IMG/VR virus record: IMGVR_UViG_3300023198_000771
DNA from: an uncultured virus (IMG/VR IMGVR_UViG_3300023198_000771)
Taxonomy: Duplodnaviria > Heunggongvirae > Uroviricota > Caudoviricetes > Crassvirales
DNA length: 64,000 nt
Direction: 5' to 3' (one strand)
Positions 2,432-38,107 of this stretch are shown here, piece after piece; positions within the stretch are counted from its first letter, which is position 1; the number at the start of each line of letters is the position of its first letter. Under the pieces are notes generated by a model that was not told the origin of the DNA, did no database searches, and worked only from the letters and a program-made list of their open reading frames with translations. Position numbers and translations under genes: made by a program.

Positions 2432-2840
2432 TTGGGCAGCAGCCGAAGAGTTGCAGATGTTCACAGAACTGTTTTTGGATCCTTCAACGAAGAAGGTATT
2501 GGAAGCCCGTAAGATCCTGGAAGATCCAAATTACAAGTGGAAGAAGGGAGAGAAGGACAGAGCCAAGGCTAAGTTTGCGAGGATTGAGGGAGAAAATATC
2601 AATCTGCACAGGTTTGTCAGCGCAGTTCGGAACCTCATCGATCAACATGAGGCGCAGACGGATATGCTGACGGAGATCTATTCTGAGTGGTATCAGAAGA
2701 TTGCCACAGAGGGAGCGCAGCCGTTGGAGATAATGAGTAGGCAGTACGATATTATACAAACCATGTGGGCCAGAATTTATGCAGCGATTGAGCCGTTGAA
2801 TCTTAAACTGGATCCACCTAAACAAATCGAAAAGCTATGA
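2421..2840 (+). CDS. Hypothetical helical protein
   Basis: ORF in operon; start moved to ATG 2421 (MVNDW). Confidence 0.7.
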   Translation: MVNDWAAAEELQMFTELFLDPSTKKVLEARKILEDPNYKWKKGEKDRAKAKFARIEGENINLHRFVSAVRNLIDQHEAQTDMLTEIYSEWYQKIATEGAQPLEIMSRQYDIIQTMWARIYAAIEPLNLKLDPPKQIEKL

Positions 2841-3367
2841 AACAAACAGCAGTAATGATCGTAGTATTACTCCTTGCCACGGTAGGGAGTACGGCACAGA
2901 CTTATCAGAGAACTTTCAGAGAGAAACCACCGGCAGCTATCTATCTGGCCTATCAGCCGTGGGATCATGGCCTTGGGATCCGTGGGGATTACCATATCAA
3001 TCACTGGGCGGGGGTCTATGGATCCGCTTCCTATGGGAAGTGGGGTCTGTACAAGATGTCTGGCCTGGGTGAACACATGAAGTTAACGGCAGGGATCTTC
3101 ATCCCGTACAAAGACTATGCCGGCGGTCAGTTTGATTGGACCGTTGGCCTTAACTATCACAAGGTATGGGGTGAGATCGTGGAGAGTGAATATTTCAAAG
3201 ACGATCCTGTGTTTCACAATCCCTGGTCCTTTGAGTTGGGACTTACCTGTAAGCTGAAGCGGTTCGCTATCGGGTGCAGGACAGATATTCTCCGGTGGGA
3301 GCCTTGCATCGATGTAGGGATACCGTTGAGGCAAAGTGACTATAATAAGCATAAAAGGAGAAGGTAA
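2837..3367 (+). CDS. Secreted/outer-membrane beta-barrel-like protein
   Basis: Sec signal peptide (MKQTAVMIVVLLLATVGSTA-Q), alternating aromatic/Gly beta-strands. Confidence 0.5.
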   Translation: MKQTAVMIVVLLLATVGSTAQTYQRTFREKPPAAIYLAYQPWDHGLGIRGDYHINHWAGVYGSASYGKWGLYKMSGLGEHMKLTAGIFIPYKDYAGGQFDWTVGLNYHKVWGEIVESEYFKDDPVFHNPWSFELGLTCKLKRFAIGCRTDILRWEPCIDVGIPLRQSDYNKHKRRR

Positions 3368-4903: not shown

Positions 4904-5209
4904 ATGATGGACACAGAAGATTGGAAAGAGTTTCAGAAAAAAGGCAAGGAGATCCGCAGGGGCCGGTTGCAGAGGCACCAGAAAGCTATCCTCCATTTTG
5001 CCTTGAACAAAGGGTTATCCCACAAGTATGTCCAGGAGTGGCAGATCAGGATCTCTAACGGCACAACAACCATGGACTTGTATCCACAGGCAAAGAGGTA
5101 TCATAACATCACAACAGGGAAGCGTGGAGATTATCACCATCTCAAAGGGTTTCTAAACTCAATATTCGGCAATGAAACAAGAGGTAACAGCGCAAAAGGT
5201 CCTGGGTGA
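4904..5209 (+). CDS. Hypothetical protein
   Basis: ORF in operon. Confidence 0.65.
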   Translation: MMDTEDWKEFQKKGKEIRRGRLQRHQKAILHFALNKGLSHKYVQEWQIRISNGTTTMDLYPQAKRYHNITTGKRGDYHHLKGFLNSIFGNETRGNSAKGPG

Positions 5210-5790: not shown

Positions 5791-6224
5791 GTTTCTACGA
5801 CATTGAGTTCAAAGTACCTGGTAACCCCAAAGCCTTAAAGCGGCACCGGTCATTCCAGAAGGGTAAATTCAAGGGAACCTATGATCCCTCAGAAGGAGAT
5901 AAGGCAGACTTCCTGGTGAAGTGTATGGCCAATAAACCGGACACTCCACTGGATGAGCCATTATCCGTGACACTGACGTTCTGTTTCCCACGGCCAAAGA
6001 GCCATTACAGGACAGGTGCTATGGCGCATTTAATGAAAGATGTGGCTCCCAAGTGGCATACAGGCACACCAGACACAGATAACCTTCTAAAATTCGTCTG
6101 TGACTCTCTGAACGGGATCTTCTGGAAGGATGATTCACGTATCTGCCATTCAACTCAGTCCAAGATCTATGGACATGAGGGGTACATTTTGATTCAAATC
6201 ACCAAACTCAACAAATTCAAATAG
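5787..6224 (+). CDS. rusA: RusA Holliday junction resolvase
   Basis: PDTDNLLKFVCDSLNGIFWKDDSRI signature. Confidence 0.92.
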   Translation: MSFYDIEFKVPGNPKALKRHRSFQKGKFKGTYDPSEGDKADFLVKCMANKPDTPLDEPLSVTLTFCFPRPKSHYRTGAMAHLMKDVAPKWHTGTPDTDNLLKFVCDSLNGIFWKDDSRICHSTQSKIYGHEGYILIQITKLNKFK

Positions 6225-6226
6225 CT

Positions 6227-6487
6227 ATGAAACTAACTATGTCACAAGAGAAGAGGGTTCTGGTTGAATCGCTGTTGGAAAATGACAGCAAACCAAACCA
6301 CGATCATTCAAAATCTCACTGGAAACAACACGTTTTCATGGATCCCACAACACTTACCTGCTATTATAACGATCAAGTTATTAGGTATGGCACATTGAAT
6401 GTTCTGATCGTCAACGGCACATTACATTATGATGGCACCGAACGACACCAGGATATTATGATGTTACGTTATTCACTCTTTAATTAA
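6227..6487 (+). CDS. Hypothetical protein
   Basis: ORF in operon. Confidence 0.6.
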   Translation: MKLTMSQEKRVLVESLLENDSKPNHDHSKSHWKQHVFMDPTTLTCYYNDQVIRYGTLNVLIVNGTLHYDGTERHQDIMMLRYSLFN

Positions 6488-9895: not shown

Positions 9896-9915
9896 CTTTT
9901 AATTATATAACTACT

Positions 9916-11442
9916 ATGGAACAAGACAAATTAGCAACGAAGCAAGGAACATTCCTTGACACGGCAATCATGGATCTGGCACAGATGCAGGTTGCAGCGA
10001 AGATGATCCTGGACAGCAAATTGGCTCCGGATCACTTCTATGAGAAACTACCAGACAATAAGCCTGACTACACAAAGGGGAAGGTTGAGTCTGTAATCCT
10101 GGTGTGTGTACACGGCCATGACCTTGGTTTGAAGCCTTTGGTGGCCTTACAGCACATTATTCCGGTCAACGGTCTATTGAGTATCAAAGGAGATGCAGCT
10201 AAGACGCTTATCTTCAATTCTGGTAAGCTGAAGCCGGGATCCTGGAAGGAAACTATCACCGGATCTATCGCCAATGGTGACTATGTGTGTACCATGACTG
10301 CAGAGAGGCTTGACACGAAGGAGGTAATGTCCCGGACCTTTGGTGTAGAACAGGCAAAGAGAGCCGGACTATGGATTGATGATAAGAAGCTGAAGGGTAA
10401 TGATGGGTGGAAGTATCTGAAGTCTGCATGGTACAAGTATCCTGAGAGGATGATGGCGTATCGTGCGTTGGGTTTCCTTTCGAGGGATCTATTCCCCGAT
10501 GTGCTTTCCGGTAGCTATACCACAGAGGAAGCTATTGATATGCCTGTCGATACATCCCTGGTAGTTCAGACAAATTCAGGAGCAGAGGTCATTGTTCCTG
10601 ACACGGAGTTCAGCAAGGACAGGAGTGAGGATCTGACCAGTAAGGCCAGTGCGCAGATTGATAAGAGGGCAGGGGAACTGGAACCGAAACCGAGAGAAGA
10701 GGTACATCCGGAGTCCCAGGCTCATATCAGGCAGCAGCCTATGACTATTGATGAAGCGCATCCAGTAGCACAGGAGGATAATTCTGCCCAAAGACAGCAC
10801 AAGGGAACAATGCTCAATGGTACGCCAGGGTGGGTCCCTGTCTATAATGAGGAAGAGTTGAGAGAAATGGATGCTCTTTCCGAATTGAATCCACTGATAG
10901 AGCATGACAGTATGATGGTTAAGTGCAGGGATATTGATCCTGGGAAGAATACCAATAAGAAGTTGAGGACTATCCTGCTGGCCCATTATGCAGGGGAAAC
11001 AATCACCTTGTATGCCAAGTTTGATCCAGAGCCGGATATAGATGCACCGGCACAGGATCCACCACCGGTACCAGAACCAGAACCAGAGCCAGAGAATCAG
11101 CCAGAATATGAAGCCGTGGTGGAGAGTGAGGCAGAGGAAGAGGATCCACCACCTGCTGACGATGTACAGCCAAATACCGGCTTTGATGTCAGTGCGCCTG
11201 ATCCAGGTACCGATGTAAACAAGTTTGAGATTGAAGTTCCCGAACTGGTAGATGGTAAACGTGGGTTTGATCAGGTCAAGACACTCTTTGAAGAACTTGC
11301 CAACAAAGCAGGGATAGATAACAATGCCTATGATAACATAGTTAAGACGAAGTTCCCCGAGTTTCAGAAGTACAGGAGTAAGGAGGATTTCTGCTACATG
11401 GGAGAAGTGTCCGAGATCAACACCTTGCTTAATAGTATTTGA
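9916..11442 (+). CDS. RecT/Bet-like single-strand annealing protein with long acidic Pro-rich C-terminus
   Basis: GHDLGLKPLVALQHIIPVNG, AKRAGLW, WYKYPERMMAYRA..RDLFPDVL.G.YT.EE; start ATG 9916. Confidence 0.75.
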   Translation: MEQDKLATKQGTFLDTAIMDLAQMQVAAKMILDSKLAPDHFYEKLPDNKPDYTKGKVESVILVCVHGHDLGLKPLVALQHIIPVNGLLSIKGDAAKTLIFNSGKLKPGSWKETITGSIANGDYVCTMTAERLDTKEVMSRTFGVEQAKRAGLWIDDKKLKGNDGWKYLKSAWYKYPERMMAYRALGFLSRDLFPDVLSGSYTTEEAIDMPVDTSLVVQTNSGAEVIVPDTEFSKDRSEDLTSKASAQIDKRAGELEPKPREEVHPESQAHIRQQPMTIDEAHPVAQEDNSAQRQHKGTMLNGTPGWVPVYNEEELREMDALSELNPLIEHDSMMVKCRDIDPGKNTNKKLRTILLAHYAGETITLYAKFDPEPDIDAPAQDPPPVPEPEPEPENQPEYEAVVESEAEEEDPPPADDVQPNTGFDVSAPDPGTDVNKFEIEVPELVDGKRGFDQVKTLFEELANKAGIDNNAYDNIVKTKFPEFQKYRSKEDFCYMGEVSEINTLLNSI

Positions 11443-11545: not shown

Positions 11546-12187
11546 ATGAACGATGAAAGCATTATTATTCACATTGCAAAGGCTTGTCACCAGGCTAACA
11601 AGATATGGTGTGAGGCCAATGGTGATCACAGTCAGGCTGATTGGGATCTTGCGGAGCAGTGGCAGAGGGAGTCTGCCATTAATGGAGTGAAGTTTAGGAT
11701 TGAGAATCCTAATGCCGGTAACGATGCCCAACACAACAATTGGATGAAGGAGAAGATTGATAATGGTTGGGAGTGGGGAGAGGTGAAAGACACCGATGCA
11801 AAAACGCATCCTTGTATAGTTACATTCGACAAGTTGCCAGAGTTCCAACAGAAAAAGGATGCCTTATTTGGATCTATTGTTGATGCCCTGGTAAAAGAAC
11901 CCTTTCATTTCAATTTCGAGGATCAGAGGATTATTGATCAAGATGAGTTTCACCAGAAAGATGTCAAGGCAGACAAACTTCTCCGGGTTGGTCTTGATGC
12001 CCAATTACAGAACCTAAAAGGATGTCATGGTTCCAGGGAGAGATCCCTTGCAATCACAAAGGTTCAGGAGGCTATTATGTGGCTTGGGATGGACTTAAAG
12101 AGGTTGAATGAACCAAACCCCTATCCGAACAGCTACAATCCTGCTAACAGCATTATTGAGCCAACGGCTGATGGTCTGAAGATGTAA
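11546..12187 (+). CDS. RyR-domain protein fused to an Acb2/Tad1-like helical hairpin (candidate anti-defence protein)
   Basis: N-term HNNWMKEKIDNGWEWGEVKDTDAKTHPCIVTFDKLPEFQQKKD (RyR repeat); C-term SRERSLAITKVQEAIMWLG. Confidence 0.75.
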   Translation: MNDESIIIHIAKACHQANKIWCEANGDHSQADWDLAEQWQRESAINGVKFRIENPNAGNDAQHNNWMKEKIDNGWEWGEVKDTDAKTHPCIVTFDKLPEFQQKKDALFGSIVDALVKEPFHFNFEDQRIIDQDEFHQKDVKADKLLRVGLDAQLQNLKGCHGSRERSLAITKVQEAIMWLGMDLKRLNEPNPYPNSYNPANSIIEPTADGLKM

Positions 12188-12913: not shown

Positions 12914-12930
12914 TAGCCCCCTTTCTTATT
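12896..12930. terminator. Bidirectional terminator between convergent modules
   Basis: A9-GGGGGT-tgata-GCCCCC-TTTCTT. Confidence 0.8.
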
Positions 12931-13250
12931 TATCGGATTCGCACATCCAACTGTGTGGGCGGTATTTGAGATCGTTGGACTTGCCAATGATAAACCTTAT
13001 CATCCGAGTTAATCCAGAACCTACGATGCTCCCAATAGTTTACAGGGCCATAGGACATTTGATAAACACCTTGTACTGACCAAGTGTGTATTTCACCACT
13101 CTTACCATCACTGGCTATTGCTGATGGTGGCCCCCAGGACATATAGAGGTTTTGTTTGGTACTCCCCATCCAGGAGTTCATAATTTCTTTCTGACTTGTG
13201 CATCCTGCCAGTAGGATAATTGCGATAATCATTAAGTGTTTCATAGTCAT
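12930..13250 (-). CDS. Small lipoprotein
   Basis: Lipobox LLAGC; WMG.TK..L..SWGPP. Confidence 0.75.
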   Translation of the reverse strand: MTMKHLMIIAIILLAGCTSQKEIMNSWMGSTKQNLYMSWGPPSAIASDGKSGEIHTWSVQGVYQMSYGPVNYWEHRRFWINSDDKVYHWQVQRSQIPPTQLDVRIR

Positions 13251-14961: not shown

Positions 14962-16050
14962 TTAACTTGGTCCTGCTGAGTCACCGAACGCACCAGAAGG
15001 GAGTTCCCAAGTATCAACGAAAATAGGATCGTTATATTCTGTTTGGGTTCCTGCTTTGATGAGTTCAGCACTCAGTCCATTTACACAGGCTTTGAATACC
15101 TTGCCAGTGGTAGCCTGTTCAACCACTGACTTAGTGCGGTGTATGGTTGTACCGAAATCCTGCTCGTATTCAGCTATCCGGTCAAATCCTTTTTGGTCTA
15201 TGTGCTGCACACTGGCCCATTGATTCTTTGAGCCAAAGATGCACTTCATACATGATAAGCGTCCCCATCCCAATTTGTAGGCAGGGTGAGGGTTCACCTT
15301 GTATTTACCAATGATGTCCCAAACCTGGGTTTCAGTCCATGCGTGGACGGGCCTCCAATGGTCAACATGACGTTTACTCTTCCCATTGCGTCTATCTGCC
15401 CTATCTGGCTCGAAAGTGTGGTATTTGGCTCTGGATGTGCTTTCTTCGGCACGTTCACCAGTTATGACCAGTGTGCGTTTGTTGTGGAAGCGGCTCTGGT
15501 TGGTGATGGCAGCCGTACATACATCTATCTTTAGATATGCTGAACACCATCTCACACTCAGGTTGGCTGACACCTGTGGAAACTTCTGTCTGGTATTGTC
15601 TGGCCCTTTGCCACCAGATAGGCCACACTCAATAAGGTTGTCCTCTGGATACTCCCAGTGGTTCCGGGAGGTGGGGGAGTTGAGGCGGTTCATCTCACGT
15701 TCAAATCCTCCCTCCTTCCATGAATAGAATATGGGTAGATCAAATGCACTGGCCACCTTCCTGCAATAGTCCTCAGTACAGGCCCAATCCATCAGCGTTG
15801 ATCCTTCCTTACCATCAATGAGGTGGTGCCACAGCTCAATCTTACTGCGATCCACACCGAGTTCAAACAGGTGAAGCAGACAGGCCGTTGAGTCCTTGCC
15901 CCCGGAGAAGGCAAGGATAACATGGTCATAGCTGTTTAGATCAGCCTCAATGGAGCGAGTCAGCTCCTCCTGCTGTTGGATCAGAGCAACCATGTCCAGT
16001 TGCCCTGACCCTCTCATCTGTTCACTGGTGAATAAAGAGTTCTGCATCAC
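14962..16050 (-). CDS. PAPS-reductase family (PP-loop, DndC-like) protein
   Basis: AFSGGKDS PP-loop, RWCSAYLK, TGERAEES..RA, WRPV..WT, RLSCMKCIF. Confidence 0.88.
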   Translation of the reverse strand: MMQNSLFTSEQMRGSGQLDMVALIQQQEELTRSIEADLNSYDHVILAFSGGKDSTACLLHLFELGVDRSKIELWHHLIDGKEGSTLMDWACTEDYCRKVASAFDLPIFYSWKEGGFEREMNRLNSPTSRNHWEYPEDNLIECGLSGGKGPDNTRQKFPQVSANLSVRWCSAYLKIDVCTAAITNQSRFHNKRTLVITGERAEESTSRAKYHTFEPDRADRRNGKSKRHVDHWRPVHAWTETQVWDIIGKYKVNPHPAYKLGWGRLSCMKCIFGSKNQWASVQHIDQKGFDRIAEYEQDFGTTIHRTKSVVEQATTGKVFKACVNGLSAELIKAGTQTEYNDPIFVDTWELPSGAFGDSAGPS

Positions 16051-16968: not shown

Positions 16969-17148
16969 TTAAGTGAATAACCAGTGTGTTATTGATAGGT
17001 TCTCCCGGTACACCTCTGCATGGGAGTATTCGTTCTCATCCTTCAACCAAGTGGCCAATAGGTATAGTTCACCGGGAAGGATGTATTGCTTGTGGGGTGG
17101 GCCTTTATGCCTGTAAATAATTACCCAATATGCTACTCTTGTTTTCAT
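16969..17148 (-). CDS. Small hypothetical protein (59 aa)
   Basis: MKTRVAYWVII...HWLFT*; ATGA overlap with the methyltransferase stop. Confidence 0.55.
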   Translation of the reverse strand: MKTRVAYWVIIYRHKGPPHKQYILPGELYLLATWLKDENEYSHAEVYRENLSITHWLFT

Positions 17149-18032
17149 ATCAGTTCGTGTTGGTTAAAATATCTTATTGCTTCCTCACCGATCCACTTGG
17201 CCAGTGGTGGACATACAGCGTTACCGATCTGCTTGTACTGCTCAGTCTCACCACCATGAAATACATAGCTATCAGGGAATCCCATTACTCTGGCATACTC
17301 TCTGACAGTGAAGGGGCGATAGCCAACAGGGACAGAAGGATCAACAATCACTTGATGGCCCTTATTCTTGCCATACTGGGCCAGTAAGCACCTTGCATAG
17401 GTTCGGGGGTCACTTGGGTCAAGGATCACAGGTTTGTCCCTGTATTCACCGTCAAAACGTGCGACAACACTGCTTGTTGGTTCTATCCCGTTCCACTCAT
17501 CCAATAGATCAGATAACAATGGTCTGACAGTTACCTCTGGTGGCCTGAGTTCAAATGGCTTCCGGGTACCGATCAGGATCAAGCGAGGGCGTGACTGTGG
17601 TAGCCAGTTCAGCGAGTTCACCGGACATAGTATATTAATATAGTAGTCGGGGAGTTCTTGCATGGCTTCCATCACCACTGGAAACTTCTTCATGCCGGGG
17701 ACATTCTCAACGATATACATCTCCGGTTCCTCAATGGCAATGTGACGAAAGAAATGGAGGAAGAGATCATCACCTGTGCGGCTGCCCTTGATGTCAGCTA
17801 TTGCGCTGTAATGAGTGCAGGGATATGTACCCAGTATAATGGGAGTGGATGGCTGATCTTTTACCCTGATGTCCTTGATGTCCATCTCAAGCACTTTATG
17901 GTCATGGTTGGCCCGGAGGGTGGCAGCAGCATGAGGATCAAGTTCAAGGCTTTGTATAACCTTGATCCCGGCTTCCTTCATGCCCTGATCCATGCCCCCG
18001 GCACCACTGAAATATGATTTAGCTTCTATCAT
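17145..18032 (-). CDS. DNA (cytosine-5)-methyltransferase
   Basis: Motifs I FSGAGG, IV YPC, VI ENVPG, VIII QSRPR, IX/X REYARVMGFP..QIGNAV. Confidence 0.95.
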   Translation of the reverse strand: MIEAKSYFSGAGGMDQGMKEAGIKVIQSLELDPHAAATLRANHDHKVLEMDIKDIRVKDQPSTPIILGTYPCTHYSAIADIKGSRTGDDLFLHFFRHIAIEEPEMYIVENVPGMKKFPVVMEAMQELPDYYINILCPVNSLNWLPQSRPRLILIGTRKPFELRPPEVTVRPLLSDLLDEWNGIEPTSSVVARFDGEYRDKPVILDPSDPRTYARCLLAQYGKNKGHQVIVDPSVPVGYRPFTVREYARVMGFPDSYVFHGGETEQYKQIGNAVCPPLAKWIGEEAIRYFNQHELI

Positions 18033-22938: not shown

Positions 22939-23339
22939 AAAGATCAGAATTTTTAAAACGGTTGGGCCTGGGGATAGCGGCTATTCCTTTTGCCAAACAA
23001 GTTGCCGGTGCGGTGACAGAGGTAATGAATGATGAGGCCGGAATAATAGCTGATGGCGTTCCTAAAGAGTGGTTGGCAAAACCTCCTATCCATGACGAGA
23101 TGATTGCAAAGTATGGCCACTATGAGGAACCATGGATCCATGAAGGGTGGCCGTTGAGGTTGAATGATATAATCGCTATTGAGAACTCAGATGATGAGTA
23201 CCTGGTAACTGCACTTCACAGGGATCCTGTTGAGGGAAAACAAATGGCTACCTGTATTCCATTCAAGGAAGGTCCACCGGTGTATATCACCCGGGACAAT
23301 AATATAATCAGATTTTCAAACCTTAAATCACAATTATGA
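22935..23339 (+). CDS. Protein with Tat-like signal peptide
   Basis: MKRSEFLKRLGLGIAAIPFAKQVAGA resembles RRxFLK. Confidence 0.55.
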   Translation: MKRSEFLKRLGLGIAAIPFAKQVAGAVTEVMNDEAGIIADGVPKEWLAKPPIHDEMIAKYGHYEEPWIHEGWPLRLNDIIAIENSDDEYLVTALHRDPVEGKQMATCIPFKEGPPVYITRDNNIIRFSNLKSQL

Positions 23340-23815
23340 AACAAGACCAAGTACAGATCCTTCACGCCAAGTTCGGGAAGATCATTGAGATCGGTTATTA
23401 TGACCGTACCGATGCACGTAACCATTCCATTGAGGATGAAGAGGTCGCACACCGGGACCTGAAAAATGCGCTGATGGCCTTTAAGGATGAGGTGTCCGAG
23501 GCATACTACTCTGTGGCTCATACCCTGAGTGACTACATCACTCCAAATGAGGTGATAGTGACTGAGAAGAAAGGAGCCTTCTTCCTGACCATTAAGGGTA
23601 AGTTCTCTACCTCCCATTCTGATGAGGTGAATATTACCTCCGGAGCGATCCTGATGGCAGATGATCCCACTGATGATCTGGTGGTGAAGCTGAACACCCT
23701 CCGCACTGAGTTGTGGGAATACTTCTGGAACGATAAAGCTGACGGTAAGCTGCCGTTCCCCAAAGGAGAGGTACCCGAGGCGGTGCAGGAAGAGAACACC
23801 ATCTTAGAAAATTAG
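23336..23815 (+). CDS. Hypothetical protein
   Basis: ORF with ATGA overlap. Confidence 0.7.
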   Translation: MKQDQVQILHAKFGKIIEIGYYDRTDARNHSIEDEEVAHRDLKNALMAFKDEVSEAYYSVAHTLSDYITPNEVIVTEKKGAFFLTIKGKFSTSHSDEVNITSGAILMADDPTDDLVVKLNTLRTELWEYFWNDKADGKLPFPKGEVPEAVQEENTILEN

Positions 23816-26268: not shown

Positions 26269-26312
26269 TTTTCAAAAAGTTTTCAACAGTCATTTTGTAT
26301 TGATTTTTCCCC

Positions 26313-26471
26313 TATATTTGGGGTGGTTAGTTTTAGTTAATACTACGTTTAGAATTTGATGGCAATCACTAAGGACCACTGTACGCCCGTATGGTGGTTC
26401 TTTTTTTTGTATCATTGTTCTGCCATTCGATTCTCCAACAGAGCCGATAGTATTAACTAAAAAATTACACC
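26313..26471 (+). promoter_or_regulatory. Promoter plus structured leader/attenuator RNA
   Basis: TATATTTG box; 15-bp perfect inverted repeat 26331-26345/26448-26462 enclosing a terminator hairpin 26371-26408. Confidence 0.7.
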
Positions 26472-26831
26472 ATGCAGAATCATCCTGATTTCTTACGTGC
26501 CAACCCGTCTGATGCTGTCCAGTTCACAGATACCCAAGAGAATCACATTAAGCAGAACTATGTAAAGGTTGAGGAAATCAAGTTCCTTGTTATACCTCAA
26601 CAATACCTATGGGCAGAAGATCTCAAACCAAATGAGAAAATCCTAATGTCGTTTATCCGGATGGCTGATCAGAAAGATCATTGTTGGGCCTCAAATGCTA
26701 CCATTGGGAAGTGGATGCAGCTTCCTACTCAGACAGTGAAAAATCTAATTGTTGGATTGAAGAAGAAAGGTTACCTGCAACAAGTGTCCTGGGATGGCCG
26801 GTACAAAAGGGTTATTAAGTGTTTAAGGTAG
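26472..26831 (+). CDS. Helix-turn-helix protein (replication-initiator-like N-terminal HTH)
   Basis: LKPNEKILM..I......CWASNATIG......TV...I..LKKKGYL. Confidence 0.75.
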   Translation: MQNHPDFLRANPSDAVQFTDTQENHIKQNYVKVEEIKFLVIPQQYLWAEDLKPNEKILMSFIRMADQKDHCWASNATIGKWMQLPTQTVKNLIVGLKKKGYLQQVSWDGRYKRVIKCLR

Positions 26832-26997
26832 ATTCTCCCGTACTCATACGAGTACGACAGCCGTATTAGAATTAGTACACATAAAAGATAAGTAAAGGAT
26901 ACTTCACTGTGATGTACTGTGATTAAGGCTCGTAAATCAAAGATTTACCAAAAACTATCCATTACCACATTACAGTATAAATTCATAACTTGGCAAC

Positions 26998-27077
26998 AAT
27001 TAGCCGATGCCGAACGGTTGATCTGCTTTCTTGTTTCATAGCAAGTGACCCGGGTTGCAAAACATCCCGGGTTTTTT
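26998..27077 (+). ncRNA. Candidate three-hairpin small RNA
   Basis: TAACTTGG box at 26986; hairpins ATTAGCCG/CGGTTGAT, CTTGTT/AGCAAG, ACCCGGG/CCCGGGT + T-run. Confidence 0.55.
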
Positions 27078-27110
27078 GTAACTTGCCATTGAACTAAAAA
27101 ACAAAACATC

Positions 27111-27923: not shown

Positions 27924-28241
27924 ATGAAGCAGATAATTCGGCAAATTATTCAATGGCTAACAAAATGGTTTTGGAATAAGCCTACGGCAAGGCCCGACCC
28001 ATTTACAGCCAAGGAAGTCCTTCACCTATACACCTGTGTACAGTACAAAGGTCAATGGATCAATCTCAGGAAAACTGAGTTAAAAGCCTTTGACGCTATG
28101 GCGAGATCCGACAAAAGAGCCATGGCCTTGCGATTTAAGCAACAAGTGAAGAAAGGCCATTTGAAGTTCGTTGAGATCGATGGACAAATGACCTGTATCA
28201 AAAACAAAGACTATGGAATTAAAGAAAGCAGTGGCAAATAA
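27924..28241 (+). CDS. Hypothetical protein
   Basis: ORF in operon. Confidence 0.6.
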   Translation: MKQIIRQIIQWLTKWFWNKPTARPDPFTAKEVLHLYTCVQYKGQWINLRKTELKAFDAMARSDKRAMALRFKQQVKKGHLKFVEIDGQMTCIKNKDYGIKESSGK

Positions 28242-32169: not shown

Positions 32170-34470
32170 ATGGCCAAGGAAGCAATTAATACTATAAGTT
32201 CCTATCAGCGAGGGGCATATCCATTCCCAAAGGATGAGATACCCACCGATGAAAAGGGAGCAGAATGGTGTCGAAAGTGGTGCGAGGCTATGTATGCGGC
32301 CTATATCACAGATAGGACAGGCGTTCCATATTCAACCATTGATGAACTAAATGACCTCCGTGATTATGCTGCAGGGATGCAAGGCGTAGAGCGTTACCAG
32401 GAGATATTATTGGACGAGTCAGAGGAGGGTGGAGATCTCACAGGATACATGAATGTTAACTGGGAGATTTTTTCAGTTATGCCTAAGTTCCTCCACATCA
32501 TACGTGGCATCTTTGAGGAACAGGAACACTCGATTGTGGCAACTGCTGTGGATCCAAAGAGTAGTGAGGAAAGGGAAATCGAAAAACTCCGCAAGTGGTT
32601 CAAGGGTCGTTACAAGCCTATCATGGAAGCCGTGAACCAGTTTGCCGGTCACAAGCCGGAGCCTGAGTGGATCCCCGAAACCTTGGACGAGTTGGAGATC
32701 TACCAACAGGTAGGAGGGTTCAAACTGGCCAAGGAAACTGAGATTGAGGAAGCACTGACATACACTGAGTATATTTCCGATTGGAAAGAGATTAAGCGGA
32801 AGATGTTGGATGATTTTGCTACCATCAACTGTGCTTCTGTCAAAGACTTCACTGACATTTATACCCGGAAGGTTAAGTCCCGTTGGGTGGATCCTGTCAG
32901 ATTGGTTATCCAATATTCAAAGCACTGGGACCACCGCAACTCAGAATATGCCGGTGAACTGATCTCAGAAACAATCTCCAATATCCGGAAGAACACTGAT
33001 CTCACAGAAGAACAACTCCGGAACCTTGCCCAATTCTACAATGGGCGAAGCGCAAACAGAAACCTGTCATCCTGGACCGAGGAAGATCTACGCCTGGAAG
33101 GTGGAGGTTGGAAGTATGATAACTTCAAGATCGAGGTTATGGATTCTGAATGGTTCTCTGTCAATCAGAAGAACTTCACCAAGCGCACCAATGCAAGGGG
33201 TGATACCCTCATGTATGAGGAAAAGGACAACAAGATCTATGACACCGAAACCAAAAAAACAGTCACCAACAAGTTCAAGGTTGTCTATCGGGCAAAATGG
33301 ATTGTTGGCACAGAGTTTGTCTATGACCACGGTTTACAGTACGATGTCCCAAGAACAGGCAAGAAAGAGGTTGAACTGTCATTTAAGTTTTACAAACTCC
33401 CAGGACGTTCAATCGTCAGTCTTTCCGTACCCAACCTTGACCAGATCCAGTTAACCTGGTTGAAGATGCAAAACGCATTGGCCATGTCCTCCAATTCTGG
33501 TGTGGCCGTTGAATACACCTCCCTAATGAACATGAAACTGGGGGGAGAGAAGATGGAACCATTGGAGATCCTTTCCATCCGGAGGGATACCGGTGACCTG
33601 ATCTACAAGATGACTACCCACATGGGAAAACAGAATATTCCCGGGGGTATGCGCCCCATTCAAGAACTTACCGGAGGTATCGGACCTCAACTGCAAGAAT
33701 TTGTACAGTTGTTCGATCTGAACCTCAACTTCATCCGGGACCTGACCGGTATCAATCAGATTGCTGATGCCAGTAACCCCAACCCAAACCAGAGCGTAGG
33801 AGGTGCTGAAATGGCTATTGTGGCCACCAACAATGCACTGAAGCCTATCTATGCAGGGTATATCAGGCTCAAAGAACTGGTGGCCCGGGCAGCAGCTATA
33901 AGGATCCAGTTACTTGTACGCCACGATAAGAAGGCTTACGAGGGGTATATCCCAGTAGTGGGAGGTGCCGGAGTGAAGATCCTTTCAGTTGGCACTGATA
34001 TACTGGACGCTGATTGGGAGATCCAAATCCAAGCGAAACCCACCACACAACGCAAACAGGTCATCCTGGAATCTGCTATGAAGGCCATGCAACCCGATAA
34101 AGACGGGTTCACAGGCATAGAGGAAGGTGACTTTATGATGATTGAAAGACTGTTGGAGGCCGGTAATGAGAAACTGGCAGAGATCATGCTTAACTTCCGG
34201 TCCAGGAAAAACAAAGAACGTCAGTTGCAGATCCAGAGGGAGAACATGGAATTGGATAAGAAGAATGGTCAAGAACTGGATGCTTCCAAACAAGAACAGG
34301 TCCGTCAGACAGCACAGTTTGAAAGTGAACTAAAGAAGGGTGAGGAAACCCACAAGTTCGACCTGGAACTCCGTAACAAAGAACAGGAGCATGGTTGGAA
34401 GATGGAAGAGATTATGTTAGAGAAATCCTTAGATATGAATCAAGCAGATCAAACTAAAAAAACGGCTTAA
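32170..34470 (+). CDS. Portal protein
   Basis: Position after terL, 766 aa, PKF..II.G, VDP..LV, YAGE, IRDLTGIN. Confidence 0.85.
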   Translation: MAKEAINTISSYQRGAYPFPKDEIPTDEKGAEWCRKWCEAMYAAYITDRTGVPYSTIDELNDLRDYAAGMQGVERYQEILLDESEEGGDLTGYMNVNWEIFSVMPKFLHIIRGIFEEQEHSIVATAVDPKSSEEREIEKLRKWFKGRYKPIMEAVNQFAGHKPEPEWIPETLDELEIYQQVGGFKLAKETEIEEALTYTEYISDWKEIKRKMLDDFATINCASVKDFTDIYTRKVKSRWVDPVRLVIQYSKHWDHRNSEYAGELISETISNIRKNTDLTEEQLRNLAQFYNGRSANRNLSSWTEEDLRLEGGGWKYDNFKIEVMDSEWFSVNQKNFTKRTNARGDTLMYEEKDNKIYDTETKKTVTNKFKVVYRAKWIVGTEFVYDHGLQYDVPRTGKKEVELSFKFYKLPGRSIVSLSVPNLDQIQLTWLKMQNALAMSSNSGVAVEYTSLMNMKLGGEKMEPLEILSIRRDTGDLIYKMTTHMGKQNIPGGMRPIQELTGGIGPQLQEFVQLFDLNLNFIRDLTGINQIADASNPNPNQSVGGAEMAIVATNNALKPIYAGYIRLKELVARAAAIRIQLLVRHDKKAYEGYIPVVGGAGVKILSVGTDILDADWEIQIQAKPTTQRKQVILESAMKAMQPDKDGFTGIEEGDFMMIERLLEAGNEKLAEIMLNFRSRKNKERQLQIQRENMELDKKNGQELDASKQEQVRQTAQFESELKKGEETHKFDLELRNKEQEHGWKMEEIMLEKSLDMNQADQTKKTA

Positions 34471-34472
34471 TC

Positions 34473-35678
34473 ATGGCAAAACAGACAAGAGAAGAAATCG
34501 AAAGAAATCCGGAGTTTATGGCCCTCCAAGATATTGAAGGCATAGATCCGGCTGAATTATTGAAACAAGCAGGTGGAGATCCACCGGCTGATCCCCCCCC
34601 GGGAGATCCACCGGCCCCCCCTGCAACACCACCGGTACCACCGGCTGATCCTCCCCCGGGAGATCCACCGGCACCACCGGCCACACCACCAGTTGCGGAT
34701 CCTGACCCATCACCACCGGACGCTTTACTGAACGAGATGTTTGGTGGGCGATTTAAGAGTGTTGATGAGGTCAAAAATGCGAATATACCCGGAATATTAG
34801 ATGAGGTCGCTACCCTGAGACAGGAGAAGGCTGATCTAACATCACAGCTTGAATTGAAGCCCAAAACAAACTTCGCCAATGACGAGGTGGCTTTGTTTAA
34901 CGAGTTCGTGAAGGAAACCGGGACCAGAGACTACGGGGTTTTTAATAAGATCAACAGTGCGGAGGTAGCGACCATGGACTCCATGGAAGCATTAGTGACC
35001 AAATACGTACTGGATCATCCCGAGCAGTCAGGCAAGGAACCACAGATCCGAAAGTATTTCGAGAAGAAGTATAATGTGGATCCTGAGCAAGTTGAAGAGG
35101 CTGATCTTGAAATCAACAAATTAGGAATGGATGCTGATGGAGCAACCGCAAAAAAGGCTCTCCAAGAGGTTAAGGACAAATTGAAGGTCCCTGAACCAAG
35201 CCAAGAGCCAAGTAAGCCGAAGGAATTAACCCCGGAGGAAAAAGCAACCTTGCAGACCGGTTGGAATAACGTGGGCAAGGGAGTCAGCAGCAAACTGGCG
35301 AAGCTGAGTGTACCCATCAAAAATGGTAAAGATCCTCTTTTGGACTATGAAGTTTCAGAATCCGAGCAAAAAGAGATCACTGATTTTGTCCAGAATTATG
35401 CCGTTGAGAACCAAATGGAACTTAACGAAACAAATATCCGGCAAGTATCTACCATGGTGTATAACACACTGATGATAAACAAGCTGCCAGAAATCGTCCA
35501 TTCCGTATTTGAGAAGGCGAGAAGTCTGACTGAAGAACAGGTCCACGCTATCTATGCAAATCCATCACCGGCCAAGAATAACGACACTCCTCCCGCAACA
35601 CCAGATCCGGTACAGACCGATTTGGAGAAGCAGCAGGACGAGATATTCAATGCAGAAATGGATGCGTTTAATCAGTAA
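34473..35678 (+). CDS. Probable scaffolding protein
   Basis: Acidic/Pro-rich, between portal and capsid. Confidence 0.65.
   Translation: MAKQTREEIERNPEFMALQDIEGIDPAELLKQAGGDPPADPPPGDPPAPPATPPVPPADPPPGDPPAPPATPPVADPDPSPPDALLNEMFGGRFKSVDEVKNANIPGILDEVATLRQEKADLTSQLELKPKTNFANDEVALFNEFVKETGTRDYGVFNKINSAEVATMDSMEALVTKYVLDHPEQSGKEPQIRKYFEKKYNVDPEQVEEADLEINKLGMDADGATAKKALQEVKDKLKVPEPSQEPSKPKELTPEEKATLQTGWNNVGKGVSSKLAKLSVPIKNGKDPLLDYEVSESEQKEITDFVQNYAVENQMELNETNIRQVSTMVYNTLMINKLPEIVHSVFEKARSLTEEQVHAIYANPSPAKNNDTPPATPDPVQTDLEKQQDEIFNAEMDAFNQ
34581..34694 (+). repeat. 57-bp tandem duplication encoding PPADPPPGDPPAPPATPPV x2
   Basis: Units 34581-34637 and 34638-34694 with synonymous differences. Confidence 0.9.
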
Positions 35679-35729: not shown

Positions 35730-37112
35730 ATGAATCCAGATGCAGTTGCGCAATTATACGCCTCAGACATTGTTTCAGGTTTTGATATTCACAAGCCTGA
35801 GAAATTGAATACCCTATTCTCCCGTTATGGAGATCAGGGAGCTTCCTACTTCCAATTACTCAGATCCATGGGATTTGAGAAGGAAGTATCACTCGATACC
35901 TATTCACACTACGAAGAGAACCGAATCCATGAGATTTGTGTTGTAGATGCTATTGTGTCTCAACCGGCAATCGGGGCAGTCATTAAGTTTACACTCGATG
36001 CAACCTCATTGGACGCAAACAATAACTTCTATGTAAGGCTATGGGATGTTATCCTGTTCCCTAATGAAGTTACCGGTTCGGTTACGCTCATCGAGGATGC
36101 CGGTACGACCACACCGGACATTACCTGTACGTTGAATGATGATACCGAGCAGTTCCCGGCTCTCGCAGCCTTGGACGAGTTGATCATTATTTCCAATGCT
36201 TTCTCTGAAGGATCCGGTCAGCCCGATCCTGCTATCAGGGGAACATGGGAGTATGAGAACGATGCTCAGATCATCAAGGAAACTATTGGTGTAACTGGTT
36301 CGGAAATGGTGAACCAAACTTGGTTCCAGGTTAATACCATGGGAGCCAAGACCAGTGCCTACTACCACTTAGGTCAAGTGGATATTGACTATCGAACTGC
36401 CCTGCGTATCGATGGTGCGCTACTTTTCGGTAAGAGAACCGTCAACACCTTACTCGTTGATCCCGTAACTGGTCGGCCTATCAAGACCACAGAGGGGGTG
36501 GTACCCTATATTCGTAGGGTTGGAAACGAGCAGTCATACGTTTCCGGAACATTTGATGTTCTGGAATTTGACGAGATGGACAATACCCTTGACCGTGAAG
36601 GGGCCGGGAATTATATTCTTGGTTTACTTGGAATCACCCTCTCCCAGGACATTGAGAACAGCCTGGTAACTTACTTTGCAGACACCAATATCCAGTATGC
36701 AAGGCAGACTTCCAATGATGTGCTGTTCAATGCCAATGAATCTCTGGCTGCATCGGTGAACTTCAAGTATCTCACCAAGTCGGAGAGAACCTTCCTGTTC
36801 AAAAGGATGGGCGTTCTTAACAACCCTAAACTCTACGGAGCAGCCGGTTATGAGAACATCGGTCCCAAACTTGGAATGTTCATGCCTATCAACAAGAAGA
36901 AAGACCCCGTTAGCGGAAACATGGTCGAGTCCATTGGTACCAGGTACCGTGGCTTGGGCAAATACAACCGCAGGATGGAAGTCTGGCAAGTTGGTGGTGC
37001 AGGAGAAGGTTTGAAGGTGACGGACATCGATGACCGTAATACCTACCAACGCTGCCATGTGGGAGCGCATTTCCGTGGTGGGAATCAAATGGTCCTGATG
37101 GAACCGGCATAG
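35730..37112 (+). CDS. Major capsid protein
   Basis: 460 aa, FSEGSGQP...N..QIIKE...V.GSE, TTEG; position; strong terminator after. Confidence 0.85.
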   Translation: MNPDAVAQLYASDIVSGFDIHKPEKLNTLFSRYGDQGASYFQLLRSMGFEKEVSLDTYSHYEENRIHEICVVDAIVSQPAIGAVIKFTLDATSLDANNNFYVRLWDVILFPNEVTGSVTLIEDAGTTTPDITCTLNDDTEQFPALAALDELIIISNAFSEGSGQPDPAIRGTWEYENDAQIIKETIGVTGSEMVNQTWFQVNTMGAKTSAYYHLGQVDIDYRTALRIDGALLFGKRTVNTLLVDPVTGRPIKTTEGVVPYIRRVGNEQSYVSGTFDVLEFDEMDNTLDREGAGNYILGLLGITLSQDIENSLVTYFADTNIQYARQTSNDVLFNANESLAASVNFKYLTKSERTFLFKRMGVLNNPKLYGAAGYENIGPKLGMFMPINKKKDPVSGNMVESIGTRYRGLGKYNRRMEVWQVGGAGEGLKVTDIDDRNTYQRCHVGAHFRGGNQMVLMEPA

Positions 37113-37159: not shown

Positions 37160-37183
37160 CACTTTTTAATTAAATCAAACGCT

Positions 37184-38107
37184 ATGTTATATAAGAATGA
37201 CGAGATCTACAAAATGAGTAATGAGGACCACAGGAAAATCAATAAGATGTATCCTAAGTTTCCCATTCGGCTAATCTATCCGGAGTCCCGGGTTAAAAAA
37301 TCCAGGTCGAAGCATAACAGGCTTCCGGACAAACCAAACTCAATATCCTTTCCCCTCAAGGCAGCCGTCAGGACGGATAAAGGAGTAGAGAATTGGAGAT
37401 ATGCAGAGAATAAAATCATTGGTACAAATGGACGTACTATATGGCAACCGCACAACCTGATCCTTAGAGGCTCTATGATGTTGGAGAAGTCAGATATTGA
37501 ACTGGTGTTCTGGTTAGTTAATTGTTGCCCATTCCTTCAGGGCGGGGCAAACTGGAACGAGAAGGTGGCTAAGTGTGTCATCGAGGATCTACGTGGTGCT
37601 GCTGAGATAAAGGCAAAGAAGGAAGAGGAAATGGCCACCGTGAAGGCCATGATCTATTCGTCAACAATGGGAATGGGAGAGAAGAAGCTACGCTTAGTGG
37701 CAAAGGCTTATTTTATCAGCGATGTAAATGAACTATCCTACGCCCAGGTGAAACTTGCAGTCGAGAACACCATTATGAGGGATAAGAGAACGGGTATTAA
37801 GAAGTTCCTTGATATGGTTGAGGCTGAACAGGTGATCTCTGTGAGATCTAACCTGCAAAGCGCAGTTGACCGTGAGTTGATAACTTATATGGTTACAAAC
37901 AAGCAGTGGGCTTGGGTGACCGGAAAAGGACAGAAGAACGAACCTATTTGCCAGATTGGAGCAGGTGCGGATCCGAGTGAAGCACTATACGATTATTACC
38001 TTGGAAACAGAGGTTTCGCACAGGAACTTGCGGCCTCCCTTAAAGGAAAGACAGTTGTTATGGCTGCCGGTGCCGGTGGCCTTGACGATGATCAAGATCC
38101 GGAGTAG
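37184..38107 (+). CDS. Conserved crAss-like protein downstream of major capsid gene
   Basis: Start MLYKND at 37184; call from position. Confidence 0.65.
   Translation: MLYKNDEIYKMSNEDHRKINKMYPKFPIRLIYPESRVKKSRSKHNRLPDKPNSISFPLKAAVRTDKGVENWRYAENKIIGTNGRTIWQPHNLILRGSMMLEKSDIELVFWLVNCCPFLQGGANWNEKVAKCVIEDLRGAAEIKAKKEEEMATVKAMIYSSTMGMGEKKLRLVAKAYFISDVNELSYAQVKLAVENTIMRDKRTGIKKFLDMVEAEQVISVRSNLQSAVDRELITYMVTNKQWAWVTGKGQKNEPICQIGAGADPSEALYDYYLGNRGFAQELAASLKGKTVVMAAGAGGLDDDQDPE

What the first reader, a model, noticed from the sequence alone, without database searches (positions are those of the whole stretch)
26986..27077. Candidate phage sRNA presenting an anti-start-codon loop complementary to several phage genes
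Seen: a promoter-like TAACTTGG box, about 80 nt with no sense-strand ORF folding into three hairpins, and a terminator. The middle hairpin displays UCAU in its loop; segment 27023-27042 is the reverse complement of GCTATGAAACAAGAAAGCAG. Matching start regions: 2834-2845 (GCTATGAAACAA, plus AGCAG after a bulge), 5169-5182 (13/14), 23335-23346 (12/12), 6224-6233 (10/10). Inference: a trans-acting antisense RNA that shuts off selected early/middle genes, or host mRNAs, in a host phylum that largely lacks Shine-Dalgarno sequences. Caveat: ATGAAA is the commonest start context, so some matching is expected by chance.
Basis: partly seen in the sequence, partly recalled or inferred. Interest (0 to 1): 0.75.

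Follow-up and report, generated by a model that had tools for sequence, protein, structure and literature searches.

The report
Phage small RNA masking start codons
A group of uncultured phages of Bacteroidota carries a gene for an ~80-base RNA whose unpaired parts mirror the start regions of several of the phage's own genes and have changed in step with them, so it probably damps their translation, although no transcript has been seen.

Summary
The element is a real, conserved small-RNA gene (about 26998-27077): Bacteroidota -7 promoter box, 5' hairpin with a conserved UGCC(GA) loop, a pyrimidine-rich anti-start segment, and an intrinsic terminator. A covariance model finds it in 18 analysed phage records that form one clade; stems covary while loop and seed stay nearly fixed. 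Rfam has no match. The four named matches are exact and sit at start codons. Evidence for pairing with phage mRNAs: start regions of carriers, even genes without orthologs, match the RNA about three times more often than those of GC-matched non-carrier phages. Six of 44 gene families bind their own phage's RNA better than swapped RNAs (p 1e-4 to 2e-3). Synonymous codons are frozen at some predicted sites. The middle hairpin is kept in only 10 of 18. Likely a trans-acting translational repressor working like C4 or FopS, but a new family. No expression data, host unknown, carriers are one clade. The scan noted similar-looking RNAs in other Bacteroidota phages, not this family.

The parts
26986..26993 (+). 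-7 promoter box of the Bacteroidota primary sigma factor (TAACTTGG; consensus TAnnTTTG)
   Evidence: A box lies at this spacing in 18 of 18 members, a perfect TAnnTTTG in 14 (the search was limited to the stretch before the RNA). Consensus and T-12 numbering from PMC6847099.
26998..27077 (+). Predicted small RNA, about 80 nt
   Evidence: Fold z = -3.55. The start predicted from the box falls 0-4 nt before the first base pair in 18 of 18 members, exactly on it in 10.
26999..27022 (+). 5' hairpin: 8-bp stem, loop AUGCCGAA (27007-27014)
   Evidence: Stem sequence differs between members but pairing is kept, and the UGCC core of the loop is nearly fixed. All 8 model pairs have double-sided changes.
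27023..27043 (+). Linker and seed (CUGCUUU, then CUUGUUUCAUAG): the anti-start-region segment
   Evidence: UGC and UCUUGUUUCAUAGC invariant in the first 14 aligned rows, with small U-tract changes in distant members.
27030..27045 (+). Weak middle hairpin with UCAU loop; optional in the family
   Evidence: Predicted; CUUG..CAAG arms kept in 10 of 18 members.
27047..27077 (+). Intrinsic terminator hairpin and U tract
   Evidence: Fold; all 9 model pairs have double-sided changes.
27079..27086 (+). Second -7-like box (TAACTTGC) for the next gene (27111), making the RNA a separate unit
   Evidence: Sequence; similar boxes follow the terminator in several relatives. Inferred.
27924..27943 (+). Best-supported target: start region of a 105-aa gene of unknown function, mirroring linker and 5' loop
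   Evidence: Own-RNA preference p = 1e-4 globally and within subclades, 17 members. Predicted binding -15 to -18 kcal/mol with opening costs.
28211..28231 (+). Target: start of the GroES-like co-chaperonin gene (28213)
   Evidence: Top-ranked start in the window (-18.1); own-RNA preference p = 7e-4 and 3e-4; family.
34463..34500 (+). Probable target: start region of the 401-aa gene between portal and major capsid gene (scaffold-like by position only)
   Evidence: Own-RNA preference p = 1.1e-3 and 5e-3. GGC AGA frozen in the 13 records of the other subclade. In the window's subclade only a CGGC before the ATG is kept and the median rank is 0.46.
37181..37197 (+). Probable target: start of the 307-aa gene after the major capsid gene (function unknown)
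   Evidence: Own-RNA preference p = 6e-4 and 0.016; TTA 16 of 17, TAC 16 of 17, AAG 15 of 17. The window has the one TAT. Fold matches only uncharacterised proteins of crAss-like and related phages.
5166..5182 (+). Lineage-specific match at gene 5172, with complements of both the loop (TCGGCA) and the seed
   Evidence: Only such combined site in the window, mean 0.06 expected; no own-RNA preference across the family (p = 0.18).
2834..2852 (+). Lineage-specific match at gene 2837
   Evidence: not shared by 2 orthologs.
23335..23346 (+). Lineage-specific match at gene 23336
6224..6233 (+). Lineage-specific match at gene 6227
9914..9926 (+). Match at the RecT-like gene start (9916), with G-U pairs; weakly supported
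   Evidence: Third-ranked start in the window, but no own-RNA preference (p = 0.23).

Best explanation
A stand-alone gene for an ~80-nt trans-acting antisense RNA. Shown by sequence comparison: promoter box, 5' hairpin, unpaired seed and terminator are conserved as a unit across one phage clade, and a subset of the phage's own start regions is complementary to the RNA and varies with it. Inferred: host RNA polymerase makes the RNA from the start of infection. The unpaired linker (CUGCUUU) and the UGCCG loop nucleate on AAAGCAG-like and CGGCA sites within about 30 nt of a start codon, the U-rich seed zips over the AUG, and the A-rich unstructured initiation region that Bacteroidota ribosomes need is masked, so translation falls. 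The oldest targets lie beside the RNA and around the head-assembly genes; other genes join and leave the set by drift of their first codons. The likeliest role is a threshold or timer that holds down chosen assembly and accessory proteins until their mRNAs outnumber the RNA; this last step is a guess (about even odds).
For: Family: a model built from 12 rows finds the RNA in 18 analysed records including the window, always shortly before the GroES-terminase module, in one clade of the portal tree (support 99). Pairing is 93% standard, 0 of 500 shuffles as high. Start enrichment: GCTATG, TGCTAT and CTATGA, complements of the seed's 3' end, rank 1st, 2nd and 4th of 2108 six-mers enriched at carrier versus non-carrier starts. 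GCTATG begins 74 of 1314 carrier genes, 5 of 692 non-carrier genes and 6 of 610 genes in a host-phylum sample, with no difference at internal Met codons (2.0% vs 2.2%). Among genes with no ortholog in any other record, and using the same RNA and GC-matched carriers, 29 of 329 versus 15 of 528 bind at -10 kcal/mol or better (p = 2e-4), and GCTATG is 19 of 329 versus 4 of 528. In the window 12 of 89 starts reach -16 with the true seed; 0 of 120 shuffles that keep the anti-AUG end do as well (mean 5.4%). The loop complement CGGCA is strand-biased near carrier starts (86 versus 29 for its reverse, of 1312; 16 versus 17 of 692 in non-carriers) and co-occurs with seed matches (odds ratio 2.9, p = 1e-4). 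Swap test: 6 of 44 families prefer their own phage's RNA at p 1e-4 to 2.3e-3, also within subclades; portal, capsid, terminase and 33 others do not. Frozen synonymous codons at predicted sites: Gly GGC 13 of 13 and Arg AGA 15 of 15, against 0 of 215 and 0 of 114 fully frozen background columns.
Against: No transcript, host or experiment. Carriers are one clade, so the carrier versus non-carrier contrasts rest on one origin, and a host-specific taste for GCU-AUG cannot be excluded. With opening energies included, the number of window starts bound is no better than for seed shuffles (20 and 12 of 32 shuffles as high); only the mean of the ten best stands out (1 of 32). In a 400-start sample of carriers the keep-core shuffles matched the true seed 8 of 120 times. 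CGGCA is no more common at carrier starts (6.6%) than around their internal Met codons (6.0%). Against only the GC-rich non-carriers the singleton contrast weakens (p 0.01-0.12). Starts come from my own simple gene caller; 46 were moved by alignment and some GroES-like starts by rule. One gene family has frozen codons that a promoter on the other strand explains better, so freezing alone does not prove RNA pairing. Permutation p values ignore relatedness below the subclade level. Repression rather than another outcome of pairing is assumed.
Confidence: 0.72

Rival explanations
1. A cis-acting attenuator or leader. Transcripts from upstream read through the element; a short upstream ORF whose start pairs with the seed, or the starts of the next genes, decide between termination and read-through into the late module.
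For: In most members of the larger subclade an ATG lies 26-33 nt before the RNA, its first codons are complementary to the seed, and the short ORF runs into or through the terminator. The two strongest window targets are the second and third conserved genes downstream.
Against: The window and 3 of its 4 subclade relatives have no such ATG. The site shows no own-RNA preference (p = 0.23). The reading frame over the RNA is not conserved. Tracked targets 7-20 kb away or upstream (34473, 37184, 5488 family, DUF6734 gene) cannot be reached in cis from this leader. A separate promoter box follows the terminator.
Confidence: 0.11
2. The main targets are host mRNAs; the matches in phage genes reflect a start context shared with an unknown host.
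For: The seed has stayed nearly fixed while many phage targets turn over, as expected if a conserved outside partner pins it. Known phage sRNAs act largely on host mRNAs (PreS; VpdS).
Against: GCTATG is rare at starts in 35 stretches from genomes of the host phylum (6 of 610). The 16-base seed complement occurs once in 401 such genomes, with control hits at the same level. Phage targets track private changes in each RNA's 5' stem. The true host lineage was not sampled knowingly.
Confidence: 0.09
3. A protein-binding RNA (decoy or scaffold) whose fixed loop is a protein site; the complementarity to starts is secondary.
For: A 7-8-nt loop fixed on freely covarying stems is typical of a protein or tertiary contact (inference). 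Loop complements are not enriched at starts above the internal level.
Against: The loop complement is strand-biased, co-occurs with seed matches and uses rare codons: the portal's last codons read NCG GCN in 6 of 6 records of the window's subclade while ACG is 12% of Thr codons. This rival does not explain the swap test.
Confidence: 0.06
4. An ordinary terminator with a U-rich leader that mirrors A-rich starts by composition alone.
For: ATGAAA begins 13 of 87 window genes and 16-19% of genes in related phages; U-rich stretches pair easily with A-rich starts.
Against: Conserved promoter spacing, covarying 5' stem and fixed loop and seed; composition-preserving shuffles do worse; swap test.
Confidence: 0.02

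Closest known systems
C4 antisense RNA of phages P1 and P7 (PMC5320573, passages read)
   Same: About 77-80 nt; phage RNA acting on phage mRNA with two separate elements, one covering the initiation site and one adding specificity; in part of this family a complementary site also lies just before the RNA gene.
   Different: No Rfam match to any C4 family. C4 is cut from a longer precursor by RNase P and closed by a P1 stem; this RNA has its own promoter and terminator. C4 controls one antirepressor operon in temperate phages; this RNA matches many genes, and a tyrosine integrase was found in only 1 of 14 records searched.
GibS and FopS sRNAs of Bacteroides thetaiotaomicron (PMC7366714, PMC11697453; passages read)
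   Same: Trans-acting sRNAs of a phylum without Hfq or Shine-Dalgarno use that repress by pairing over or next to start codons with long seeds; sigma-ABfr promoter and intrinsic terminator.
   Different: Chromosomal, target host metabolic genes, seed at an unstructured 5' end. Here the 5' end is a hairpin with a fixed loop, the seed is central and the gene is phage-specific (1 marginal, non-matching hit in 151 genomes of the phylum). No Rfam match.
Phage-encoded trans sRNAs PreS (lambda), VpdS (VP882) and SviR (PLE satellite)
   Same: Small RNAs of phages or satellites that pair with several mRNAs during infection.
   Different: PreS and VpdS are Hfq-bound, from temperate proteobacterial phages, with many host targets; SviR belongs to a satellite and acts on another phage. 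The 2025 review of phage sRNAs has no occurrence of 'Bacteroid'.
Burkholderia ncS16 (RF02866)
   Same: Hairpin, CU-rich single-stranded middle, terminator; the best Rfam score in the region.
   Different: 19.7 bits against a gathering score of 48, E = 0.14: shared anatomy, not homology.

Membership tests
C4 antisense RNA (P1/P7) | Match to the Rfam C4 covariance models | tested here: not met
   No Rfam hit at gathering score in the window or in 6 homologous loci; no C4 family among 6 hits at E up to 10.
C4 antisense RNA (P1/P7) | Processed from a longer precursor by RNase P, with a closing P1 stem | tested here: not met
   5' and 3' ends do not pair in the predicted folds; a promoter box fixes the 5' end and a terminator the 3' end. 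Processing itself cannot be observed here.
C4 antisense RNA (P1/P7) | Two separate elements pair with two sites near the target's initiation region | tested here: inconclusive
   Loop and seed complements co-occur near starts (odds ratio 2.9) and lie together at 5166-5182 and 27924-27943; pairing not shown experimentally.
C4 antisense RNA (P1/P7) | Part of a lysogenic immunity region controlling an antirepressor | tested here: not met
   Neighbours are an HTH or replisome-organiser gene and the GroES-terminase module; tyrosine integrase in 1 of 14 records. Other integration systems were not searched.
GibS/FopS sRNAs | Sequence match to the family (R1 seed; Rfam model) | tested here: not met
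   No Rfam hit; the paper states that the FopS structure was deposited in Rfam. The R1 letters themselves were not seen.
GibS/FopS sRNAs | Single-stranded 5' seed followed by a terminator | tested here: not met
   The 5' end is a covarying hairpin and the seed is central.
Trans-encoded base-pairing sRNA (general class) | Own promoter and intrinsic terminator, no conserved ORF | tested here: met
   box and terminator conserved, reading frames over the RNA differ between members.
Trans-encoded base-pairing sRNA (general class) | Conserved unpaired seed with imperfect complementarity to several mRNAs encoded elsewhere | tested here: met
   (computational).
Trans-encoded base-pairing sRNA (general class) | Discrete transcript and seed-dependent regulation of targets | not testable with these tools
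   No RNA run holds the stretch and no host is known.

The most novel reading that the evidence does not exclude
One 80-nt RNA is the master translational brake of a whole clade of mostly integrase-less Bacteroidota phages. Genes, including newly gained ones, enter its regulon by acquiring a GCU-AUG start and a CGGCA or AAGCAG docking site in their first codons, so protein N-termini evolve under RNA-pairing constraints. The RNA then works as a protein-free timer, dormancy switch or superinfection block in a host that has neither Hfq nor Shine-Dalgarno sequences.
Probability: 0.35. Interest if true: 0.85.

Novelty: new variant of a known kind. Interest (0 to 1): 0.74.

Why it matters
A 2024 review states that the role of non-coding RNAs in lytic phages remains to be elucidated (PMC10884466), and the phage sRNAs with known targets that I found in print come from proteobacterial systems. 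This is a compact, testable case from Bacteroidota phages distantly related to crAss-like viruses, with named targets and natural compensatory variants for swap experiments. If right, it shows how such phages can time or ration assembly proteins after transcription while relying on host-type promoters, offers a route to non-integrated persistence or superinfection exclusion, and supplies a natural scaffold for programmable knock-down in Bacteroidota.

Tried and rejected
No whole genome is held for the window. Rfam and ARAGORN gave nothing; a tRNA-Met anticodon mimic was dropped because the middle hairpin is lost in 8 of 18 members. blastn of the locus against cultured phages: no match. The sigma-70 scan is uninformative for this promoter type and missed the terminator. 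Most hits of the short pattern scans were chance: 62 stretches, 56, 22 and 1 were inspected, and only those with hairpin, seed and terminator were kept. The combined loop-plus-seed pattern was absent from 5 related records. Model search of 151 genomes of the host phylum: one hit at E 9e-4 that lacks the 5' hairpin and loop (only 30 candidates scored per genome). Terminase search of 401 such genomes: none, so no prophage or host lead. No RNA holder listed among public runs; two DNA runs with small shares showed only short pieces, partly from relatives. G008 lacks a hit because the record ends at the site; it was left out of both groups. Alignment A5 used for pair counts holds about 9 low-scoring rows that are not members and is fitted to the model. 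Functions of 27924 and 37184 were not found. RecT-like and 5172 families failed the swap test. A pairing partner for the frozen codons of the capsid gene was not found. The tree is the quick version; the careful search did not finish. Literature: eight searches found no description of this RNA. In PMC10690425 four supplementary files were searched without a hit, but two archives and three large files, which probably hold the alignments, could not be read, so it may be among that paper's 8495 unnamed candidates.

Full report
Setting. The window is most of a ~75-kb phage genome: primase/helicase, RecE, RusA, RecT-like and methylase genes on the left; GroES-like gene, large terminase, portal and capsid on the right. 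The nearest cultured relatives by terminase are Cellulophaga, Maribacter and Flavobacterium phages at 26-29% identity, and the gene after the capsid folds like uncharacterised proteins of crAss-like and related phages. The host is therefore probably a Bacteroidota, not identified. The element lies between an HTH gene (26472-26831) and a 174-aa gene (27111), about 1 kb before the GroES-like gene.

Observation. With the T-12 numbering of the Bacteroidota -7 box (PMC6847099, passages) the RNA starts near 26998 and ends at the U tract at 27077. It folds into a 5' hairpin (loop AUGCCGAA), a 7-nt linker, a weak hairpin showing UCAU, and a terminator (z = -3.55, 1 of 200 shuffles as good). Of 2547 ATGs in the window, 6 match the segment exactly over 10 or more bases: the element, four called starts of 87, and one codon at the start of a missed ORF.

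A conserved family. Pattern scans of viral and metagenome contigs gave the first homologs among many chance hits. The scan with the 5' hairpin alone returned 4 true members of 56 stretches, all 4 with the seed unchanged. A covariance model from 12 rows was run on 80 loci found through terminase and on whole records. It finds one copy in each of 8 records at least 90% complete with terminase identity of 65% or more; a ninth, G008, ends at the site. None of 14 records at 32-45% identity has a hit at E below 0.001. I analysed 18 carrier records including the window and 10 non-carriers. Carriers form one clade in a quick portal tree, support 99, with two subclades of 5 (+G008) and 13. Stem 1 changes freely while pairing is kept, the loop keeps UGCC in 17 of 18 (CGCC in one), and the terminator covaries. 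Pair counts on the model-fitted alignment, which includes about 9 non-member rows, give 93% standard pairs and double-sided changes at 17 of 17 pairs, 0 of 500 shuffles as high. A -7 box precedes all 18, perfect in 14, and the start it predicts falls 0-4 nt before the first pair in all 18. The middle hairpin survives in 10 of 18 while its letters are conserved, so the letters matter, not the hairpin. Rfam has no match.

Do phage start regions match more than chance? Genes were called with a simple script; 46 starts were moved by alignment. In the window 12 of 89 starts pair with the seed at -16 kcal/mol or better; shuffles that keep the anti-AUG end give 5.4 +/- 2.3%, 0 of 120 as high. For a sample of 400 carrier starts the same null was reached 8 of 120 times, and 36 of 120 for non-carriers. 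Among 2108 six-mers, those most enriched at carrier versus non-carrier starts are GCTATG, TGCTAT, AGCTAT and CTATGA; three are exact complements of the seed, and TCGGCA, the loop complement, ranks 21st. GCTATG starts 74 of 1314 carrier genes, 5 of 692 non-carrier genes and 6 of 610 genes from 35 of 40 fetched stretches of the host phylum (5 were too short). To remove shared ancestry I kept only genes with no ortholog in any other record: with one RNA for both groups and carriers of at most 40% GC, 29 of 329 versus 15 of 528 bind at -10 or better with opening costs (p = 2e-4); against the three GC-richest non-carriers p is 0.01-0.12. CGGCA is three times as common as its reverse complement near carrier starts, even in non-carriers, and co-occurs with seed matches (odds ratio 2.9), but is no commoner than around internal Met codons. 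Against the reading: with opening costs the count of bound window starts is not above seed shuffles (20 and 12 of 32), only the top-ten mean is (1 of 32). All these contrasts rest on a single origin of the RNA.

Do targets change with the RNA? For all 44 gene families present in 5 or more carriers, I compared binding of each start region to its own phage's RNA with binding to swapped RNAs. Six stand out, global and within-subclade p: 27924 family 1e-4 and 1e-4; 5488/5500 family 3e-4 and 7e-3; 37184 family 6e-4 and 0.016; GroES-like 7e-4 and 3e-4; 34473 family 1.1e-3 and 5e-3; a DUF6734 gene just upstream of the RNA in the larger subclade 2.3e-3 and 1.8e-3. Four pass a Bonferroni limit of 0.0011, one sits on it. 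Two more reach 0.04-0.05; 36, including portal, capsid, terminase, RecT-like and 5172, show nothing. The first 8 families were picked for strong binding, but they also rank high on swapped RNAs, so the choice does not hang on own-RNA scores alone. In the 27924 family the first codons of records G021, G024, G002 and the window mirror each phage's private stem letters. Synonymous sites agree: GGC AGA is frozen (13 of 13, 15 of 15) where it faces the linker, against 0 of 215 Gly and 0 of 114 Arg background columns, and TTA TAC AAG is nearly frozen in the 37184 family. In the window's subclade the 34473 family keeps only CGGC before the ATG, spelt by rare NCG codons at the end of portal in 6 of 6 records, and ranks at chance by energy. 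The window's own 5488 start binds weakly (-5.7).

All are true matches here, and 5172 also carries the loop complement right before its ATG, but none is shown to be conserved. They look like recent recruits. The top window targets with opening costs are 28213, 27924, 9916, 23336 and 34473.

A cis site. In most of the larger subclade a short ORF starts 26-33 nt before the RNA with seed-complementary first codons and runs into the terminator. This recalls the layout of C4-type loci (recalled) and could add attenuation, but the window's subclade lacks it, the frame is not conserved and it shows no own-RNA preference (p = 0.23).

Mechanism. Shown by comparison: a conserved transcription unit, covarying structure, fixed unpaired motifs, and matching start regions that vary with the RNA. 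From established work: Bacteroidota initiate without Shine-Dalgarno pairing and depend on unstructured A-rich start regions (PMC6847099, passages), lack Hfq, and their sRNAs GibS and FopS repress by covering start regions (PMC7366714, PMC11697453, passages). Inferred: linker and loop nucleate, the seed covers the AUG, initiation is blocked (0.72). The purpose is open. A tyrosine integrase occurs in 1 of 14 records and no prophage was found in 401 genomes, so classical lysogeny control is unlikely; timing or rationing of assembly and accessory proteins, a carrier state, or exclusion of relatives are the candidates.

Comparison and novelty. It works like C4 (two elements, phage mRNA targets; PMC5320573, passages) and like GibS/FopS (same phylum, start-region masking), and belongs to neither family. 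PreS, VpdS and SviR are the nearest functional phage precedents (preprint 10.1101/2024.10.31.621285 passages; PMC12197685 first sixth of the text and a term search; PMC10884466 passages). Eight searches found no description; unread supplements of PMC10690425 could list it unnamed. Earlier notes of this scan describe look-alike anti-start RNAs in other Bacteroidota phages, none matching by sequence; they are unchecked and not counted as support.

Verdict. A real, undescribed phage sRNA family with unusually good comparative evidence for multiple phage targets and no expression data. New variant of a known kind; interest 0.74.

Noticed in passing
window 35745-35765 (start of the major capsid gene, 35730): Codons 8, 9 and 11 are frozen across carriers (CAA 14 of 15, ATA 15 of 15, GCC 16 of 16). 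On the opposite strand they spell a -7 box, TATATTTG, in 13 of 16 carriers (TATAATTG in the window): a possible conserved antisense promoter firing across the capsid start codon.
   Followed up: partly
window 11546-12187: 213-aa gene with a RyR domain and a borderline Acb2/Tad1 hairpin match (26.7 bits, cut-off 27): a possible anti-defence nucleotide sponge.
   Followed up: no
window 26269-26471: Non-coding stretch with a 14-bp hairpin and U tract (26371-26402); the part around 26270-26440 is covered by several contigs of relatives. Could be another conserved element before the HTH gene.
   Followed up: no
window 26472-26831: The HTH gene is 119 aa in the window's subclade, while the other subclade has a 150-200-aa replisome-organiser-like gene at this place.
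   Followed up: no
window 25835, 26986, 27079 (+) and 20860 (-): Intergenic boxes here read TAACTTG(C/G) rather than TAnnTTTG, which may reflect the host's sigma variant.
   Followed up: no
L272:11758-12648 (record G019) and 12 other records: A DUF6734 gene lies 1-4 genes upstream of the RNA in all 13 records of the larger subclade and in none of the window's subclade or the non-carriers.
   Followed up: partly
record G001:9956-10420: The only tyrosine integrase among 14 records searched.
   Followed up: no
record G007:67500-74100 region: A 2125-aa ORF is inserted between the RNA and the gene that follows it in the window.
   Followed up: no
window 12930-13250 (-): 106-aa ORF with a lipoprotein-like signal (hydrophobic stretch ending in LAGC) whose start region matches the seed over 10 bases; a superinfection-exclusion-type protein is one possibility.
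   Followed up: no
L032 and L058: Two marine viral contigs carry the 16-base seed pattern twice, 126 bases apart, within a short repeated unit unrelated to this RNA.
   Followed up: no
window 14962-16050 and 17145-18032 (-): PAPS-reductase-like and DNA methyltransferase genes in the leftward block.
   Followed up: no
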